DNA from: Methylophaga frappieri
Lineage (GTDB): Bacteria > Pseudomonadota > Gammaproteobacteria > Nitrosococcales > Methylophagaceae
Length of the DNA stretch: 32,000 nucleotides
Direction: 5' to 3'
NCBI RefSeq assembly: GCF_000260965.1
Contig: NC_017856.1
Location: 1,470,001-1,502,000 of the forward strand
Shown here: in pieces, positions 21,668 through 27,425 of the stretch
Layout of the letters: the number at the start of each line of letters is the position of its first letter
Numbering within the stretch: the stretch's first letter is position 1
Translations under genes and position numbers: made by a program
Notes under the pieces: generated by a model
What the model was told of the DNA's origin: nothing
Seen by the model: only the letters and a program-made list of their open reading frames with translations
Database searches by the model: none

Positions 21668-22573
21668 ATGATCAAAAGTAAGCCAGAACCAAAAGACTTT
21701 GAAAAACAAAGTGTTCAGTACTTAATTCAAGCACTTGATCTCATTAGGTCAAATGAAGAAAACTTTGAATTTATTGAAGATTGCGATGTTAGAAAAGAAG
21801 ACTACTGGGAATATCATCAAGGGATACTAAACAATTCATTAACGCTACTTTTTTTAAGCTTGGAAAATTATTTAAAAAAAGAGATATGTAGAGTTTCACC
21901 ATTACTTCTTTTGGCAGGCGAACCCAAAAAATGGGGTTCAGCTAAAGAAAGTAAAAAGTTTAGTGAGTTATTTATTCACCAATTTGATGATCTTTTGGTG
22001 TTATATCAAGAGCTAGGACTTGGAGAGCTAACACCACAAACAAAGACCAAATTAGAAGACCTTAGAATAAAGCGGAATCAGATTACACACGGAGTAACTG
22101 AAGGGATCTTGACTCCCAACTATGTCATAGAGACGTTTTACACTGTTGCTGTCCATATTTGGGGGCCGAGAAAATGGTGGGATCAACTCAAAAATCATGT
22201 GTTTAATGAACCATTATTTGGCATATATGATAGTGACCACGAAAAGGCAAGTGTAACGACATATGTTGAGTTTTTGGTGTCCTATTTGGGCAAGGCGAAA
22301 TCTGGTGAGATGCTTGGTGTCAACTTAAAACAAAGAAATTACTATTGCCCATCGTGCCATTACTGGCTTAACCATGAGTATGATGTAACTGATTCAAATT
22401 ACGCTATTTTAAGTCCCAATACTCCAACATCTAAAAATCTATACTGTGTGGTTTGCGACCAAAATTATGAGGTGGAGCGGGAAAATTGCCAGGTGCCTGA
22501 CTGTAAAGGCAACGTAATTGGCGGTGACGGCTACTGCCTGACATGTTGGTCCGAGCAAGATGAAAACAGATAA
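21668..22573 (+). CDS. cassette 2: HEPN-motif protein with a C-terminal double zinc ribbon
   Basis: 301 aa. RNQITH (R-N-x3-H) at 22073-22090 in a helical N-terminal region. The C-terminus has four Cys pairs, CPSC, CVVC, CQVPDC and CLTC (22346-22546). Stop TAA equals the R'' TAA. Confidence 0.6.
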   Translation: MIKSKPEPKDFEKQSVQYLIQALDLIRSNEENFEFIEDCDVRKEDYWEYHQGILNNSLTLLFLSLENYLKKEICRVSPLLLLAGEPKKWGSAKESKKFSELFIHQFDDLLVLYQELGLGELTPQTKTKLEDLRIKRNQITHGVTEGILTPNYVIETFYTVAVHIWGPRKWWDQLKNHVFNEPLFGIYDSDHEKASVTTYVEFLVSYLGKAKSGEMLGVNLKQRNYYCPSCHYWLNHEYDVTDSNYAILSPNTPTSKNLYCVVCDQNYEVERENCQVPDCKGNVIGGDGYCLTCWSEQDENR

Positions 22574-22642
22574 CAAAGCAATCAACTACGCGCCTGCGGC
22601 GCCGGACGCTCGTACCTCGCGCCGGTTATTGCGGCGTTAGGT
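22568..22642 (+). repeat. attC site 2
   Basis: R'' ..ATAAC (TAAC at 22571-22574), R' GTTAGGT (22636-22642). The arms TAACAAAGCAAT(C)AAC / GGTTATTGCGGCGTTA are complementary. Confidence 0.8.
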
Positions 22643-22654
22643 ACCCCTACAATC

Positions 22655-23473
22655 ATGAAACGATACCGAGTATTAGCTTTTAGTTTCGATACGCGAGCTC
22701 GTTTACTTGCGACGGAAATTCAGGATTCTTGGGAGTCGCAAGTAAAGTCGCAATGGATGGAGAACAAGCGAAAAATCCGTGAAGGTCTTGTGCACGAGTT
22801 TGGAGCCCAAAATCACGAAGAGAAAATAGAGAACTTTATAGAGCTCGGAGCAAGCCCTTTATCACTCCTGGCATTTCATAACGCATTCTTAGGGCAATGC
22901 CGAAAATCCTTCGTCGTAGGCTCCTACTATTCCGCCTTGGTATCAGCTTGCACTTTGGGTGAGCGTATCTTGAACCGGCTCATCATTCATCTACGCGAAT
23001 ACTTCAGATCGACGACCGAATACAAAAAAATTTATCGTAAAGAGTCATTCGATAACTGGGAGTATGCGATTGGAACCTTAGAGTCATGGGAGGTGCTACT
23101 TCCGGCGGCTGCCGAAGATCTACGTCAGCTTGGAGGAATCCGACACCAAGCCGTCCACTTCAACCCGGAGACTGACCAAAATGCTCGAGAACTCGCAATC
23201 GAAGCAATTCATTTGCTTCAGAATATTGTTGAGAAGCAGTTTTCGGCGTTTGGGTCACAGCCGTGGTATATCGAGGGCGCTCGAGGAGCGGCTTACGTCG
23301 CAAAACAATATGAAGATTTTCCATTCGTAAAGGAAGTAGTCATTCCAAACTGTGTGTTAGTTGGCCCCCACCATAAGCTTGAGCATGGCTCAAACGGCTG
23401 GATTGTGCACGATGAGGATAATTACGAAGACAAAGAAATCACGGATGACGAGTTTTTATCATTGCTACGTTGA
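22655..23473 (+). CDS. cassette 3: HEPN-motif hypothetical protein
   Basis: 272 aa. RHQAVH (R-x4-H) at 23141-23158 within LRQLGGIRHQAVHFNPE, preceded by a helical segment ..ACTLGERILNRLIIHL... The overall layout is HEPN-like (DUF4145/Abi style). Confidence 0.5.
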   Translation: MKRYRVLAFSFDTRARLLATEIQDSWESQVKSQWMENKRKIREGLVHEFGAQNHEEKIENFIELGASPLSLLAFHNAFLGQCRKSFVVGSYYSALVSACTLGERILNRLIIHLREYFRSTTEYKKIYRKESFDNWEYAIGTLESWEVLLPAAAEDLRQLGGIRHQAVHFNPETDQNARELAIEAIHLLQNIVEKQFSAFGSQPWYIEGARGAAYVAKQYEDFPFVKEVVIPNCVLVGPHHKLEHGSNGWIVHDEDNYEDKEITDDEFLSLLR

Positions 23474-23479
23474 TCGGGC

Positions 23480-23582
23480 ACCTAACGAATCGCTGCAGTT
23501 GACCGCCCAAAGCGCTGCCGCGCTTCGGGTACTCTCCGCAGCCTTCCGCTGATCCGGCGGCAACTGAGCTTGGGCGTTAGGC
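23480..23582 (+). repeat. attC site 3
   Basis: R'' ACCTAAC (23480-23486), R' GTTAGGC (23576-23582). The arms CCTAACG..GCT(G)CAGTTG / CAACTGAGC..CGTTAGG are complementary. Confidence 0.8.
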
Positions 23583-23591
23583 GGTAAGTGA

Positions 23592-25748: not shown

Positions 25749-25810
25749 GGTCACATCCTCCGCAAGTCGGCATATTGCGGAATGTAGCATAATGCCACAA
25801 ATGGGGCAAG

Positions 25811-25901
25811 TTGTAACAAGGTGTTGTTGTCGCAGCGCAAAAGGCCGCGCTGCTGGGACGCCTTCGCTGGCGCTCCGGCGCCCCAAAACACGGCGTTATG
25901 T
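25811..25901 (+). repeat. attC site 6
   Basis: TAAC at 25814-25817, R' GTTATGT (25895-25901). The arms TAACAAGGTGTT(G)TTG / CAAAACACGGCGTTA are complementary. Confidence 0.8.
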
Positions 25902-25949
25902 GCTCTCATCTAAGGAAACCCTGTGCTAGCTGAATCAGACAGGAAGTTT

Positions 25950-26603
25950 ATGACAGAAGAAATGATGATTGATCTTAACTCAATTGATTTAAGGCTCGAC
26001 GATCATCGGCTTGAAGATGCTAAGGAAGACCTGGAAATCGCCATAGCAAGATTTATAGAGGCAATCATCAATCAGATTAACTCTGGAGAAGTTCGTGATA
26101 TTTACTCATTTGAAGACAGTGAGGCTGAGAAATTTATAAATAGTTACTCTGTGGGTCTTTCTAAAAAATTAACAAGTGATTTTGCAAAAGAAACATTAGA
26201 TTCACTACGGCACGCGTTTGTCTCCTTTGCCTTTAACGGGCTTCACCAATTGTTCACCCGCCAAGAAAATGAGGTGTGGTATCCAAAAATAGTTCTTACT
26301 AAAGAATTGATACCAAATGACAAAGAGACCCTAGACGAGGAGTTTCTTATTTTCAGAGGTTGTAGTAAATCAGAGTTAGAGTCAGGTAATTTTGGTCAAT
26401 CTTGGAGTACCTGCGAGAATTGTGCTACAGAATTCGCTTTTAAGCACTACGCATCACAGGATTGGTTCAATCCGCTAGATCGAATTGTTTTATGGGCAAC
26501 TTATTATAGAGAGAACGTGTTGTTTTCCAACCAAACGGATTTTGGTGAGTATGAGGTTGCCGTTAATACGGGGTTGCTTGATGATGTCACGCAATACAAA
26601 TAA
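25950..26603 (+). CDS. cassette 7: putative ADP-ribosyltransferase (R-S-E type) with an N-terminal helical domain
   Basis: Start probably ATG 25950; the track start at 25923 is a GTG. FRG at 26352-26360, SWST followed by ..CATEFAFK at 26400-26411 (compare STS....A..FA in C3/iota/ExoS-type ARTs), and GEYEVAVN at 26547-26555 (iota toxin Ia has EYEVLLN). Stop TAA equals the R'' TAA. Confidence 0.6.
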   Translation: MTEEMMIDLNSIDLRLDDHRLEDAKEDLEIAIARFIEAIINQINSGEVRDIYSFEDSEAEKFINSYSVGLSKKLTSDFAKETLDSLRHAFVSFAFNGLHQLFTRQENEVWYPKIVLTKELIPNDKETLDEEFLIFRGCSKSELESGNFGQSWSTCENCATEFAFKHYASQDWFNPLDRIVLWATYYRENVLFSNQTDFGEYEVAVNTGLLDDVTQYK

Positions 26604-26687
26604 CAAAGCCAATCACAATCGCCCAATGCAAAAAGCCGCATTGGGCTGGACCTCGCTACCGCTCGGCCTGTGTTGGCGGCGTTATGT
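26598..26687 (+). repeat. attC site 7 (near-identical copy of attC site 1)
   Basis: TAAC at 26601-26604, R' GTTATGT (26681-26687). Only about 5 mismatches to 21560-21649 across roughly 90 bp, by eye. Confidence 0.85.
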
Positions 26688-26702
26688 GAATGGAGAGATC
26701 GA

Positions 26703-27425
26703 GTGAGCGATGATGTTCAAGAAAATATAGAGAGATTTCTTGGATTCTTTGAAAGGAAGCTTGAGGAAATTAATGGAGCAGAATTTGGGGAGTCTACAAG
26801 ACTTTTCAGAAAAGTGCTCTATTTGGGAATTATTGATGCGCTATCGAAAAGCGTCACTTTGCAAAAAACAGGGAACAGAGAACGGATAATTTCGTTTTTG
26901 CGGTATTTTTCAGATTGGGAATATCAAGATCGTATAAGTCTTCCCCATTTAGTTCGTTTGCTGACAAAAATTCCCGATCCACAATTTTCTGAATTGAGAG
27001 AATATGCATTTGGCTTATTTGATCATTGGCATTCTGGCGACGTGATTCGCCTAGATAGAGATTTGACCATCGATGAAGCAAGAAGAAGGTGGCCTCGCAA
27101 CGTGCCAAAGCCACTAGAAGATATACAAATTGAGCATCTTCAGCACGCCAATTTATTTTATCGGCACCGTAATAGCTTGGTTCATGAAATGCGAGAGCCA
27201 GGATATGGCATGGAGTTTAGTGAAAACGAAGCTCCTTTCTATCATTCTATGGGCAATTTAAACGATGAGTCATACACATGGGAGCTTGTATATCCTACAG
27301 GGTTTTTCCATCAACTTTGTGTTACCGGTATTCAGAAGCTGAGAGAGTACTATATAAGAGATCGAATTGACCCTTACGATCACTACAAATTTGGCAGTTA
27401 TTGGATCGAGGGTTTGAATCTGTGA
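26703..27425 (+). CDS. cassette 8: HEPN-motif hypothetical protein
   Basis: GTG start at 26703, 5 nt after the GGAGAG RBS and downstream of the attC 7 R' box; the track start at 26670 lies inside attC. RNSLVH (R-N-x3-H) at 27168-27185 in LFYRHRNSLVHEMRE. Confidence 0.55.
   Translation: MSDDVQENIERFLGFFERKLEEINGAEFGESTRLFRKVLYLGIIDALSKSVTLQKTGNRERIISFLRYFSDWEYQDRISLPHLVRLLTKIPDPQFSELREYAFGLFDHWHSGDVIRLDRDLTIDEARRRWPRNVPKPLEDIQIEHLQHANLFYRHRNSLVHEMREPGYGMEFSENEAPFYHSMGNLNDESYTWELVYPTGFFHQLCVTGIQKLREYYIRDRIDPYDHYKFGSYWIEGLNL

What the first reader, a model, noticed from the sequence alone, without database searches (positions are those of the whole stretch)
21668..27425. A run of solitary HEPN-motif proteins: five of six sense-oriented single-gene cassettes between 21.6 and 27.4 kb
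Cassettes 2 (RNQITH), 3 (RHQAVH) and 8 (RNSLVH) carry R-[NH]-x3-H in predicted helical contexts. Cassettes 4 (RAANFLKH) and 5 (RLTSPSLH) carry R-x6-H. HEPN domains are metal-independent RNases that recur in Abi systems, toxin-antitoxin pairs and CRISPR effectors. None of these genes has a partner ORF such as an MNT antitoxin in its cassette, so any RNase would need intramolecular or trigger-dependent control. The five proteins are not obviously paralogous. A bare R-x4-6-H can occur by chance, so only the RN-x3-H cases are individually persuasive.
Basis: partly seen in the sequence, partly recalled or inferred. Interest (0 to 1): 0.7.

Follow-up and report, generated by a model that had tools for sequence, protein, structure and literature searches.

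The report
Solitary HEPN-like RNases in integron cassettes
In the chromosomal integron of Methylophaga frappieri, three of the five flagged single-gene cassettes carry a strictly conserved RNase-type (HEPN) motif and are probably stand-alone, phage-triggered RNases, while the other two motif matches are chance; these are new members of a known kind of system.

Summary
The window is the chromosomal integron of Methylophaga frappieri. It holds a frameshifted intI followed by about 10 attC-bounded cassettes.

**The three R-[NH]-x3-H cases hold up.**
- They exceed chance: 3 of 6 proteins, shuffle P = 4.5e-4, and none in the 26 other long ORFs of the window.
- R and H are invariant in every homologue aligned, down to 22-32% identity.
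- **C3:** a confident AlphaFold model whose top PDB matches are almost all HEPN proteins. E-values are weak, but TM reaches 0.62, and the motif ends helix 3.
- **C2:** carries the second HEPN hallmark (E-x3-K). Its relatives give repeated sub-threshold hits to five or more Pfam HEPN families over the motif region. It also has a C-terminal double zinc ribbon.
- **C8:** conserved R-N-x3-H-E and a compatible helix order, but no structural or profile match. It stays unresolved.

**The two R-x6-H cases fail.** The arginine is not conserved in either family. C4's invariant motif is NFLKHAD, and C5 is DUF5677 with Y-x3-S-x3-H.

The most likely function is trigger-activated abortive-infection RNases, as in RAZR and HepS; this is inferred. 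HEPN proteins in integron cassettes and integron defence 'biobanks' are already described.

The parts
19927..20908 (-). Integron integrase intI, interrupted by a frameshift near 20100-20115. The 318-aa ORF is 19952-20908; the catalytic C-terminus continues in the 57-aa ORF 19927-20100.
   Evidence: TIGR02249 integron integrase, 2.9e-92, 309 bits. ORFs, DNA.
21562..21649 (+). attC closing cassette 1. The left boundary of cassette C2 is at its R' GTTATCT.
   Evidence: (D1). The bottom strand folds at -38.7 kcal/mol.
21668..22573 (+). C2 (Q7C_1473, 301 aa): probable HEPN domain at the N-terminus plus a C-terminal double Cys4 zinc ribbon.
   Evidence: Family of 34 homologues with invariant E66, N67, K70, R136, N137, H141. 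15/35 members hit HEPN_RiboL-PSP (best 2.8e-4) and 9/35 hit HEPN_MAE_28990, over residues ~109-180. The motif and 8 Cys are kept at 22-31% identity.
21863..21877 (+). C2 E66-N-Y-L-K70, the E-x3-[KR] second HEPN signature.
   Evidence: Invariant in A1 and A7. The signature is defined in PMC3710099.
22073..22090 (+). C2 motif R136-N-Q-I-T-H141.
   Evidence: Invariant in 35 + 2 distant sequences.
22346..22546 (+). C2 double zinc ribbon (C227/C230/C260/C263 and C274/C279/C290/C293).
   Evidence: All eight Cys are invariant in A7. Weak hits to many Zn-ribbon Pfam models.
22570..22642 (+). attC of cassette C2. The C2 stop codon lies in its R'' box.
22655..23473 (+). C3 (Q7C_1474, 272 aa): HEPN-fold core (about residues 73-195) flanked by a conserved N-terminal segment and a C-terminal alpha/beta domain.
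   Evidence: 909 homologues. AF2 pLDDT 87.8, pTM 0.84. Foldseek PDB top hits are Csm6, 1wwp (prob 0.96, TMt 0.62), HepT/MntA, SO_3166, 2q00, 2hsb. Weak Pfam hits to DUF4145 and HEPN_Swt1 in members.
23141..23158 (+). C3 motif R163-H-Q-A-V-H168, at the end of model helix 150-167 and the start of the following loop.
   Evidence: R163 and H168 invariant, position 164 is N or H. DSSP of the model.
23482..23582 (+). attC of cassette C3.
   Evidence: -47.9 kcal/mol.
23592..24266 (+). C4 (Q7C_1475, 224 aa): member of a large unannotated family. Not supported as a canonical HEPN.
   Evidence: 1845 representative clusters. R128 is variable; F132, L133, K134, H135, K10 and R16 are invariant, and N131, A136, D139 are nearly so, within the NFLKHAD signature. 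No HEPN hit in 45 members.
23973..23996 (+). C4 string R128-AANFLK-H135. Only N131-F-L-K-H-A-D is the conserved signature.
24282..24340 (+). attC of cassette C4.
   Evidence: -31.4 kcal/mol.
24357..25154 (+). C5 (Q7C_1476, 265 aa): DUF5677 protein. The R-x6-H is not a family motif.
   Evidence: PF18928, 6.1e-25, 88.7 bits. R183 is Ala in 3 of 4 homologues; Y182, S186, H190 are invariant.
24903..24926 (+). C5 string R183-LTSPSL-H190.
25151..25241 (+). attC of cassette C5.
   Evidence: -37.1 kcal/mol.
25244..25748 (-). C6: antisense ParE-like toxin / ParD-like antitoxin cassette.
   Evidence: PF15781 9.3e-39 and PF11903 2e-16.
25923..26603 (+). C7 (226 aa): single-gene cassette without the motif and without annotation.
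26600..26687 (+). attC of cassette C7, 95% identical to the attC of cassette 1.
26703..27425 (+). C8 (Q7C_1482, 240 aa from ATG 26703): conserved R-N-x3-H-E protein. HEPN-like by motif and helix order; the fold is not confirmed.
   Evidence: 85 homologues. Invariant D45, R156, H161, E162, R164; N157 in at least 90%. AF2 pLDDT 88.6. No significant Foldseek hit in PDB or BFVD. Weak DzbB hits in 6/36 members, DUF3644 in 1, HEPN_RiboL-PSP in 1.
27168..27185 (+). C8 motif R156-N-S-L-V-H161, at the C-terminal end of model helix 148-162.
   Evidence: Kept in a Halomonas plasmid homologue at 32% identity.
27432..27519 (+). attC of cassette C8.
   Evidence: -36.0 kcal/mol.
27535..28335 (+). C9: TIR-domain cassette, a defence-type neighbour.
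   Evidence: PF13676 4.1e-31; PADLOC PDC-S66 6.5e-24 and ThsB models.

Best explanation
The region is the promoter-proximal part of the sedentary chromosomal integron of Methylophaga frappieri.

**What the cassettes encode.** Three cassettes encode three unrelated, previously unannotated families of single-chain HEPN-type proteins:
- C2: a HEPN domain followed by a double zinc ribbon.
- C3: a HEPN core with its own N- and C-terminal extra domains.
- C8: a more divergent R-N-x3-H-E protein with a large helical insert and a beta-hairpin.

**Shown here.**
- The cassette structure.
- Family-wide invariance of the R and H residues.
- The HEPN-like fold of C3.
- The absence of any partner gene in the cassettes.

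**Inferred mechanism.**
- Each protein is a metal-independent RNase whose composite active site forms when two HEPN domains pair.
- It is kept inactive by its own extra domain or by its oligomeric state.
- It is switched on when that domain binds a phage component. It then cuts tRNA, rRNA or mRNA and aborts the infection.
- This is how the single-protein HEPN defences RAZR (zinc-finger sensor plus HEPN) and HepS work.
- Expression would depend on read-through from the integron promoter, which favours these first cassettes.

**C4 and C5.** These are not canonical HEPN proteins. Their R-x6-H strings are chance matches laid over other conserved histidine signatures (NFLKHAD; Y-x3-S-x3-H of DUF5677).
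For: **Integron and cassettes:**

**Motif beyond chance:**

**Invariance of R and H:**
- C2: plus distant plasmid homologues.
- C3.
- C8:.

**Second HEPN signature in helix 2:**
- C2 E66-x3-K70.
- C8 D45-x3-K49 in model helix 29-48.
- C3 E103 in model helix 91-117.

**Position of the motif:** in C3 and C8 it sits at the end of a helix followed by a loop. This matches the description of HEPN helix 3 in PMC3710099.

**C3 fold:** about 17 of the top 20 Foldseek PDB hits are HEPN proteins (Csm6, 1wwp, HepT-MntA, SO_3166, 2q00). TM normalised to the target is 0.5-0.62 over 125-145 columns.

**C2 profiles:** hits from five or more different HEPN Pfam families fall on the same segment in up to 15 of 35 members.

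**Neighbourhood:** the same array holds a TIR cassette and a ParE/ParD cassette.

**Cassette-borne families:** homologues of C2, C3 and C8 sit between attC sites in other arrays.

**Precedents:**
- Integron-cassette HEPN family, 3jrt (PMC3710099).
- Integron cassettes as defence biobanks, and a single HEPN-AbiU2 cassette protecting against T4 and T7.
- RAZR and HepS, single HEPN proteins activated by phage proteins.
Against: - No curated HEPN model reaches its cut-off for any of the proteins or their relatives. The best is 20.7 bits against a cut-off of 28.4.
- All Foldseek E-values for C3 are above 0.3.
- C8 has no HEPN hit at all in PDB or BFVD, despite a confident model.
- C2 was not modelled because the structure jobs were exhausted.
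- Profile-profile comparison does not link the three families to each other.
- No RNase activity, toxicity or phage phenotype is known for any of them.
- intI is frameshifted, and no promoter signal stands out in the array: 12 promoter-like sites against 15.4 expected. Expression is therefore unproven.
- A DUF5677 gene tested in Enterococcus gave no defence.
Confidence: 0.55

Rival explanations
1. The three conserved-motif proteins are RNase toxins that serve the integron or the cell rather than phage defence. They would be stress-induced dormancy factors, as proposed in 2013 for integron HEPN cassettes, or addiction-type stabilisers of the cassette array like the toxin-antitoxin cassettes.
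For: - PMC3710099 proposes exactly this role for integron-cassette HEPN domains.
- The array holds a ParE/ParD cassette.
- C3 homologues lie next to RES-Xre and CcdAB pairs in Algiphilus.
Against: - There is no antitoxin ORF and no room for one in any of the cassettes. An unregulated toxin could not be maintained.
- Each protein carries extra conserved domains that look like sensors.
- The experimentally characterised solitary HEPN proteins (RAZR, HepS, the AbiU2 cassette) are phage defences.
Confidence: 0.15
2. C8, and possibly C2, are not HEPN proteins. R-N-x3-H would then be part of a different active site or binding site on another helical fold, and its resemblance to the HEPN motif would be convergent.
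For: - The confident C8 model finds no HEPN structure in PDB or BFVD: best E of 1.1 and 0.08, with AbiV only at rank 23 at E = 4.
- Only 1 of 36 C8 relatives touches a HEPN Pfam model.
- C2 has only sub-threshold profile hits.
- C8 has many other invariant polar residues (R61, H82, R99, H148, E162, R164).
Against: - The combination matches the HEPN definition: R followed by N, H four residues later at the end of a helix followed by a loop, an acidic residue with K/R at +4 in an earlier helix, and a long insert between them.
- For C2, five or more independent HEPN models all hit the same segment.
- Divergent HEPN families are known to be missed by automated searches. RAZR's DUF4145 domain is described as only 'structurally somewhat similar' to HEPN.
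Confidence: 0.2
3. For C4 and C5 the flagged motif is a chance match and the proteins have other, unknown functions.
For: - A bare R-x4-6-H occurs in 46% and 65% of shuffles of these two proteins.
- C4 R128 is K, T, Q, V, H, G, E, S or D in relatives, while NFLKHAD is the conserved signature.
- C5 R183 is Ala in 3 of 4 homologues, and the residue after R is a non-polar Leu.
- There are no HEPN hits in 45 C4 relatives.
- C5 is DUF5677.
Against: - Some HEPN families lack the R or the H and use alternative residues (Parep1/8, AbiV).
- Both families keep an invariant His together with invariant basic residues elsewhere: C4 K10, R16, K134; C5 R67, R92, R122.
- Neither protein was modelled here, and the C5 sample is small (4 homologues, three of them close to each other).
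Confidence: 0.8

Closest known systems
RAZR (PD-T7-4), ring-activated zinc-finger RNase (PMC13017515)
   Same: A single protein that combines a Cys4 zinc-ribbon module with a divergent HEPN domain. It has no partner gene and is non-toxic until a phage protein triggers oligomerisation. This is the best functional analogue for C2.
   Different: - The domain order is reversed: C2 has HEPN first and two zinc ribbons last.
- The motif spacing differs: R-x4-H in C2 against R146...H154 in RAZR.
- There is no hit to the PADLOC PD-T7-4 model or above-threshold hit to DUF4145.
- C2 is cassette-borne.
HepS and other one-gene HEPN defences (ApeA, AbiU2, PD-T4-5/PD-T7-3 with PF18735)
   Same: Stand-alone HEPN RNases that are inactive by default and are activated by a phage structural protein. 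PF18735 (HEPN_RiboL-PSP) is the model that C2 relatives hit most often.
   Different: No family-level sequence match was found. C3 and C8 have their own accessory domains. The activity and triggers of the cassette proteins are unknown.
Integron cassette HEPN family (PDB 3jrt) of Anantharaman et al. 2013
   Same: HEPN proteins carried as single integron cassettes in Gammaproteobacteria, with the R-x4-6-H motif conserved.
   Different: Profiles of the C2, C3, C4 and C8 families do not retrieve 3jrt from the PDB sequences. 3jrt is also absent from the top 50 structural matches of C3 and C8. These are therefore different families.
HEPN-MNT (HepT-MntA) type II/VII toxin-antitoxin systems
   Same: Among the best structural matches of the C3 core: 6m6w, 7bxo, 5yep, 7ae9, with TMt of 0.43-0.57. 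They share the R-x4-H chemistry.
   Different: There is no MNT nucleotidyltransferase gene and no space for one. The cassette proteins are twice as long and carry extra domains.
HEPN-AbiU2 cassette HNPBCG_15845 of the Vibrio mimicus integron (bioRxiv 10.64898/2026.03.17.712381)
   Same: A single-gene integron cassette with a HEPN domain, shown to protect against T4 and T7. It is the direct experimental precedent for the proposed role.
   Different: It belongs to a different HEPN family (AbiU2). None of the five proteins here hits AbiU2 models.

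Membership tests
HEPN superfamily (definition of Anantharaman et al. 2013, PMC3710099) | R-x4-6-H conserved across the family, with a polar residue (N/D/H) after R: C2, C3, C8 | tested here: met
   - C2: R136, N137, H141 invariant in 35 sequences and in two homologues at 22-31% identity.
- C3: R163 and H168 invariant, position 164 is N or H.
- C8: R156 and H161 invariant, N157 in at least 90%.
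HEPN superfamily | R-x4-6-H conserved across the family: C4, C5 | tested here: not met
   - C4: R128 is variable; only NFLKHAD is the conserved signature.
- C5: R183 is Ala in 3 of 4 homologues, and the next residue is Leu.
HEPN superfamily | [quoted passage not shown] | tested here: met
   - AF2 model with pLDDT 87.8.
- Helices 73-87, 91-117, 150-167 (R163; H168 is the first loop residue) and 177-195.
- Foldseek top hits are nearly all HEPN proteins, TMt up to 0.62 and probability up to 0.96, but E of 0.35 or more.
HEPN superfamily | Four-helix up-down core with the motif at the end of helix 3: C8 | tested here: inconclusive
   The helix order fits: 3-25, 29-48, an insert, 148-162 ending with the motif, and 199-219. 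No HEPN structure is retrieved from PDB or BFVD.
HEPN superfamily | Four-helix core: C2, C4, C5 | not tested
HEPN superfamily | Conserved acidic residue in helix 2, typically E-x3-[KR] | tested here: met
   - C2: E66-x3-K70 invariant.
- C8: D45 invariant, with K/R at +4 in most sequences, in model helix 29-48.
- C3: E103 invariant in model helix 91-117, but with R104 adjacent and N107 at +4.
HEPN superfamily | Match to a curated HEPN profile above its threshold | tested here: not met
   - No hit for the five proteins at E of 1 or below in Pfam, NCBIfam, PADLOC or PHROGs.
- Relatives give only sub-threshold hits. C2: PF18735 in 15/35 and PF18737 in 9/35. C3: DUF4145 in 5/32 and HEPN_Swt1 in 3/32. 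C8: 1/36.
HEPN superfamily | Metal-independent RNase activity leaving 2',3'-cyclic phosphate ends | not testable with these tools
   Needs biochemistry.
RAZR / PD-T7-4 | N-terminal Cys4 zinc finger followed by a C-terminal DUF4145-type HEPN domain | tested here: not met
   C2 has the opposite order, with the motif at residue 136 and the Cys clusters at 227-293. There is no PADLOC hit at E of 1 or below. DUF4145 is hit by only 2/35 relatives, at E of 0.14 or more.
Integron cassette HEPN (PDB 3jrt) | Sequence or structure similarity to 3jrt | tested here: not met
   Profile searches of PDB sequences with the C2, C3, C4 and C8 family profiles do not find it. It is not among the top 50 Foldseek hits of C3 or C8.
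HEPN-MNT toxin-antitoxin | Adjacent minimal nucleotidyltransferase antitoxin gene | tested here: not met
   Each cassette holds one ORF from just after the R' site to inside or just before the next R'' site.
Integron gene cassette | ORF bounded by attC sites (R''...R' imperfect palindromes), downstream of intI and in the same orientation | tested here: met
   - intI identified.
- R' sites enriched: 7 against 1.9 expected.
- attC hairpins of 59-101 nt, -25 to -48 kcal/mol.
- Homologues are flanked by attC sites in other arrays.
DUF5677 (PF18928) | Pfam match above the gathering threshold: C5 | tested here: met
   88.7 bits against a cut-off of 27.1, covering profile positions 2-165 of 166. NCBI names the protein a DUF5677 domain-containing protein.

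The most novel reading that the evidence does not exclude
The integron array stores at least three unrelated, so far undescribed families of autonomous 'sensor plus HEPN' RNases:
- C2, with a reversed RAZR-like HEPN and double-zinc-ribbon architecture.
- C3, with a new C-terminal alpha/beta sensor domain.
- C8, either a strongly remodelled HEPN or a new fold that has converged on the R-N-x3-H-E site.

C4 (NFLKHAD) and C5 (DUF5677) could then be histidine-only variants of the same chemistry. Together these would make integron cassettes a major reservoir of single-chain HEPN immunity with many different phage triggers.
Probability: 0.2. Interest if true: 0.6.

Novelty: new member of a known kind. 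Interest (0 to 1): 0.4.

Why it matters
Single-protein HEPN RNases that sense a phage component directly (RAZR, HepS) are a very recent theme. Integron cassettes have just been shown to be stores of compact defence genes.

This array offers three unannotated, widely distributed cassette families. The C3 family alone has more than 900 clusters, spread from Vibrio to Phycisphaerae. Each has the catalytic motif fixed and a different accessory domain.

If they are active, they are ready-made test cases for how different sensor domains gate the same RNase chemistry. They would also add new models to defence-annotation tools, which currently call all of them 'hypothetical'.

The negative result has practical use too. 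A bare R-x6-H string is not evidence for HEPN.

Tried and rejected
- **Curated libraries.** Pfam, NCBIfam, PADLOC and PHROGs on the proteins themselves gave no HEPN hit.
- **PDB sequence searches.** Family profiles found nothing.
- **Profile-profile comparisons.** The five families show no relationship. The only in-register alignment is C2 against C3 over the motif, at P = 0.007 and 5% probability.
- **Modelling C2 and C3 together.** I tried one read-through translation to save a structure job.
- **Foldseek of C8.** PDB and BFVD gave no significant hit.
- **Collecting DUF5677 relatives of C5.** Two genome contigs and two metagenome-contig scans gave only two loci. Plasmid tblastn gave two more, and phages gave none. 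The C5 conservation test therefore rests on four homologues.
- **DzbB (Dazbog).** The weak hits of C8 relatives were followed into the literature, without finding a described fold for DzbB.
- **Promoter scan of the array.** No enrichment.
- **Rfam.** No hit in the window.
- **Rejected ideas.**
  - That the motifs are all chance: refuted for C2, C3 and C8.
  - That the proteins are HEPN-MNT toxins: there is no partner gene.
  - That they belong to the 3jrt integron HEPN family: no similarity was found.

Full report
**What the region is.** The window comes from Methylophaga frappieri. C3 and C8 are 100% identical to Q7C_1474 and Q7C_1482, and C2, C4 and C5 are Q7C_1473, 1475 and 1476.

- An integron integrase lies at 19927-20908 on the minus strand (TIGR02249, 309 bits). 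It is split by a frameshift.
- To its right lies an array of cassettes bounded by attC sites. The R' box GCGTTAKRY occurs 7 times against 1.9 expected. It pairs with R'' boxes (A/C)TAACAA to give 59-101-nt elements whose bottom strands fold at -25 to -48 kcal/mol.
- Between 21.6 and 27.4 kb there are six sense-oriented one-ORF cassettes (C2, C3, C4, C5, C7, C8) and one antisense ParE-like/ParD-like pair.
- The next cassette encodes a TIR-domain protein.
- The ORFs fill their cassettes. Several stop codons lie inside the R'' box, so no partner gene can be hidden there.

**The observation.** C8 should start at ATG 26703, because the GTG at 26670 lies in the attC and the homologues and the deposited annotation give 240 aa.

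- Residue shuffling shows that R-[NH]-x3-H in three of six proteins is unexpected (P = 4.5e-4).
- A bare R-x4-6-H in five of six is not (P = 0.28). Such a string appears in 41-95% of shuffles of each protein.
- As an internal control, none of the 26 other ORFs of at least 150 aa in the window has R-[NHD]-x3-H.

**Conservation in homologues.**
- **C2:** 34 homologues. R136, N137 and H141 are invariant, as are E66, N67 and K70. Alphaproteobacterial plasmid homologues at 22-31% identity keep E66, K70, R136, N137, H141 and eight cysteines forming two Cys4 zinc ribbons.
- **C3:** more than 900 cluster representatives across many phyla. R163 and H168 are invariant and position 164 is N or H.
- **C8:** 85 homologues. 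R156, H161, E162, R164 and D45 are invariant, and N157 is nearly so. A Halomonas plasmid homologue at 32% identity keeps YRNALIHEFRE.
- **C4:** a full scan of 1.84 billion representatives gave 1845 relatives. In 45 aligned sequences the residue at position 128 is R, K, T, Q, V, H, G, E, S or D. F132, L133, K134 and H135 are invariant within the NFLKHAD signature, as are K10 and R16.
- **C5:** a clear DUF5677 protein (6e-25). Relatives were hard to collect. In the four found, R183 is alanine in three, while Y182, S186 and H190 are invariant.

**Fold and profile evidence.** The HEPN definition used here is that of Anantharaman et al. 2013 (PMC3710099):
- a four-helix up-down bundle with an insert between helices 2 and 3;
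- a polar residue after R;
- often an acidic residue in helix 2, as E-x3-[KR].

*C3.* The AlphaFold model is confident (pLDDT 87.8, pTM 0.84). It has helices 73-87, 91-117 (with invariant E103), 150-167 (with R163; H168 is the first loop residue) and 177-195.
- Its best PDB matches are almost all HEPN proteins: Csm6, 1wwp (probability 0.96, TM 0.62 on the target, rmsd 4.0 over 125 columns), HepT-MntA, SO_3166, 2q00, 2hsb and Csx1.
- The Foldseek E-values are only 0.35-2.7.
- Some C3 relatives also touch DUF4145, HEPN_Swt1, HepT-like and HEPN_Cthe2314 below threshold.
- I take C3 to have a HEPN core.

*C2.* This protein could not be modelled.
- 15 of 35 relatives hit HEPN_RiboL-PSP (best 2.8e-4) and 9 hit HEPN_MAE_28990. 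Others hit HEPN_Apea, HEPN_Cthe2314, DUF4145 and DUF3644.
- All these hits fall on residues ~109-180, which hold the motif.
- Together with E-x3-K, this makes HEPN probable.

*C8.* The model is equally confident (pLDDT 88.6).
- Its helix order is compatible: 3-25; 29-48 with D45-x3-K49; a ~100-residue helical insert; 148-162 ending in the motif; a beta-hairpin; then 199-219.
- However, neither PDB nor BFVD returns a significant match.
- Only stray sub-threshold hits exist: HEPN_RiboL-PSP in 1 relative, DUF3644 in 1, DzbB in 6.
- C8 remains 'HEPN-like by motif, fold unconfirmed'.

*Across all five.* No curated HEPN model passes threshold for any protein. The families are not detectably related to each other or to the 3jrt integron HEPN family.

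**Context of relatives.**
- C2 homologues in two metagenomic contigs and a C8 homologue in another sit in arrays of short same-strand genes separated by attC sites.
- C3 homologues in Vibrio diabolicus and Shewanella cyperi are also flanked by attC-like sites. In Vibrio they follow a cassette encoding an Abi_C protein, itself a HEPN family.
- A C2 homologue in Ca. Thiodiazotropha and the plasmid homologues lie outside cassettes, next to integrases or a DUF927 gene.
- These are therefore mobile families that mostly travel as single-gene cassettes.

**How it most likely works (inferred).** By analogy with characterised solitary HEPN defences, each protein would be an RNase that is inactive until its accessory domain binds a phage component.
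- RAZR is a Cys4 zinc ribbon plus a divergent HEPN. It is activated by assembling around phage portal-like rings, and R and H mutants are dead (PMC13017515).
- HepS is activated by a tail-tip protein.
- A HEPN-AbiU2 integron cassette of Vibrio mimicus protects against T4 and T7.
- The accessory domains here would be the double zinc ribbon in C2, the C-terminal alpha/beta domain in C3, and the insert and hairpin in C8.
- Pairing of HEPN domains would then complete the active site, and cleavage of tRNA, rRNA or mRNA would abort the infection.
- The neighbouring TIR and ParE/ParD cassettes fit the picture of integrons as defence 'biobanks'.
- The 2013 alternative, stress-induced dormancy RNases, cannot be excluded.
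- Expression is unproven. No promoter signal stands out. The cassettes are, however, the ones nearest attI.

**Novelty and verdict.** HEPN domains in integron cassettes were described in 2013, and single-gene HEPN defences and integron-borne defences are established.
- New here are three unannotated families with a fixed HEPN-type motif side by side in one array. One of them has a reversed RAZR-like architecture, and one has a fold that the tools do not recognise.
- That makes this a set of new members of a known kind, of moderate interest.
It holds for C3, probably holds for C2, is open for C8, and is wrong for C4 and C5.

Noticed in passing
window 19927-20908 (-): The integron integrase is split by a frameshift near 20100-20115. 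The 318-aa ORF loses the catalytic C-terminus (HSFATHLL...GH...Y), which continues in another frame. The array may therefore be frozen, unless this is a sequencing error.
   Followed up: partly
window 21562-21649 and 26600-26687: The attC sites closing cassette 1 and cassette 7 are 95% identical over 88 nt. The other attC sites differ much more. This suggests a recent common origin or a duplication.
   Followed up: no
window 27535-28335 (+): Cassette 9 encodes a TIR-domain protein (PF13676 4e-31; PADLOC PDC-S66 6.5e-24 and ThsB-like models) without a Thoeris ThsA partner. The longest ORF start (GTG 27463) lies in the attC, so the real start is probably TTG 27535, after an AAGGAG.
   Followed up: partly
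window 25244-25748 (-): An antisense cassette carries a ParE-like toxin (PF15781 9e-39) and a ParD-like antitoxin (PF11903 2e-16). It is the only two-gene, own-promoter type cassette in this stretch.
   Followed up: yes
L007 3077-4867, L008 3077-4867, L013 2382-4358: C3 homologues in Vibrio diabolicus directly follow an Abi_C (PF14355, HEPN-type) gene, with a ~50-nt attC-like site between them. The pair appears in two different neighbourhoods: next to TniQ/Csy2, and next to GmrSD_C plus an integrase. In Shewanella cyperi a 349-aa unannotated gene takes that place. In the window, the cassette before C3 is also a HEPN-type protein (C2).
   Followed up: partly
window 23592-24266 (+): C4 belongs to a very large unannotated family (1845 representative clusters). 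It has the conserved signature NFLKHAD (F132, L133, K134, H135 invariant) and an N-terminal K-x5-R-Q-L-x-A-A-I-R helix. No library or PDB sequence matches it.
   Followed up: partly
window 22571-22573, 25152-25154, 26601-26603, 27423-27425: The stop codons of C2, C5 and C7 fall inside the R'' box (ATAACAA) of their attC. C8's stop lies a few bases before its R'' box. The cassettes are packed to the last base.
   Followed up: no
L016-L019: The C3 family occurs on four IMG/VR viral contigs (37-50% identity). It has no match in GenBank phage genomes. The C2 and C8 families were not found in IMG/VR.
   Followed up: no
L005 2269-4906: In Ca. Thiodiazotropha the C2 homologue is not in a cassette. 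It follows a 551-aa unannotated gene by 77 nt, downstream of a DUF927 gene. This is a possible two-gene version of the system.
   Followed up: no
window 28532-29636 (+): Cassette 10 holds two overlapping unannotated ORFs (185 and 187 aa, with a 17-nt overlap). It is a candidate two-gene system with no match in Pfam or PADLOC.
   Followed up: no
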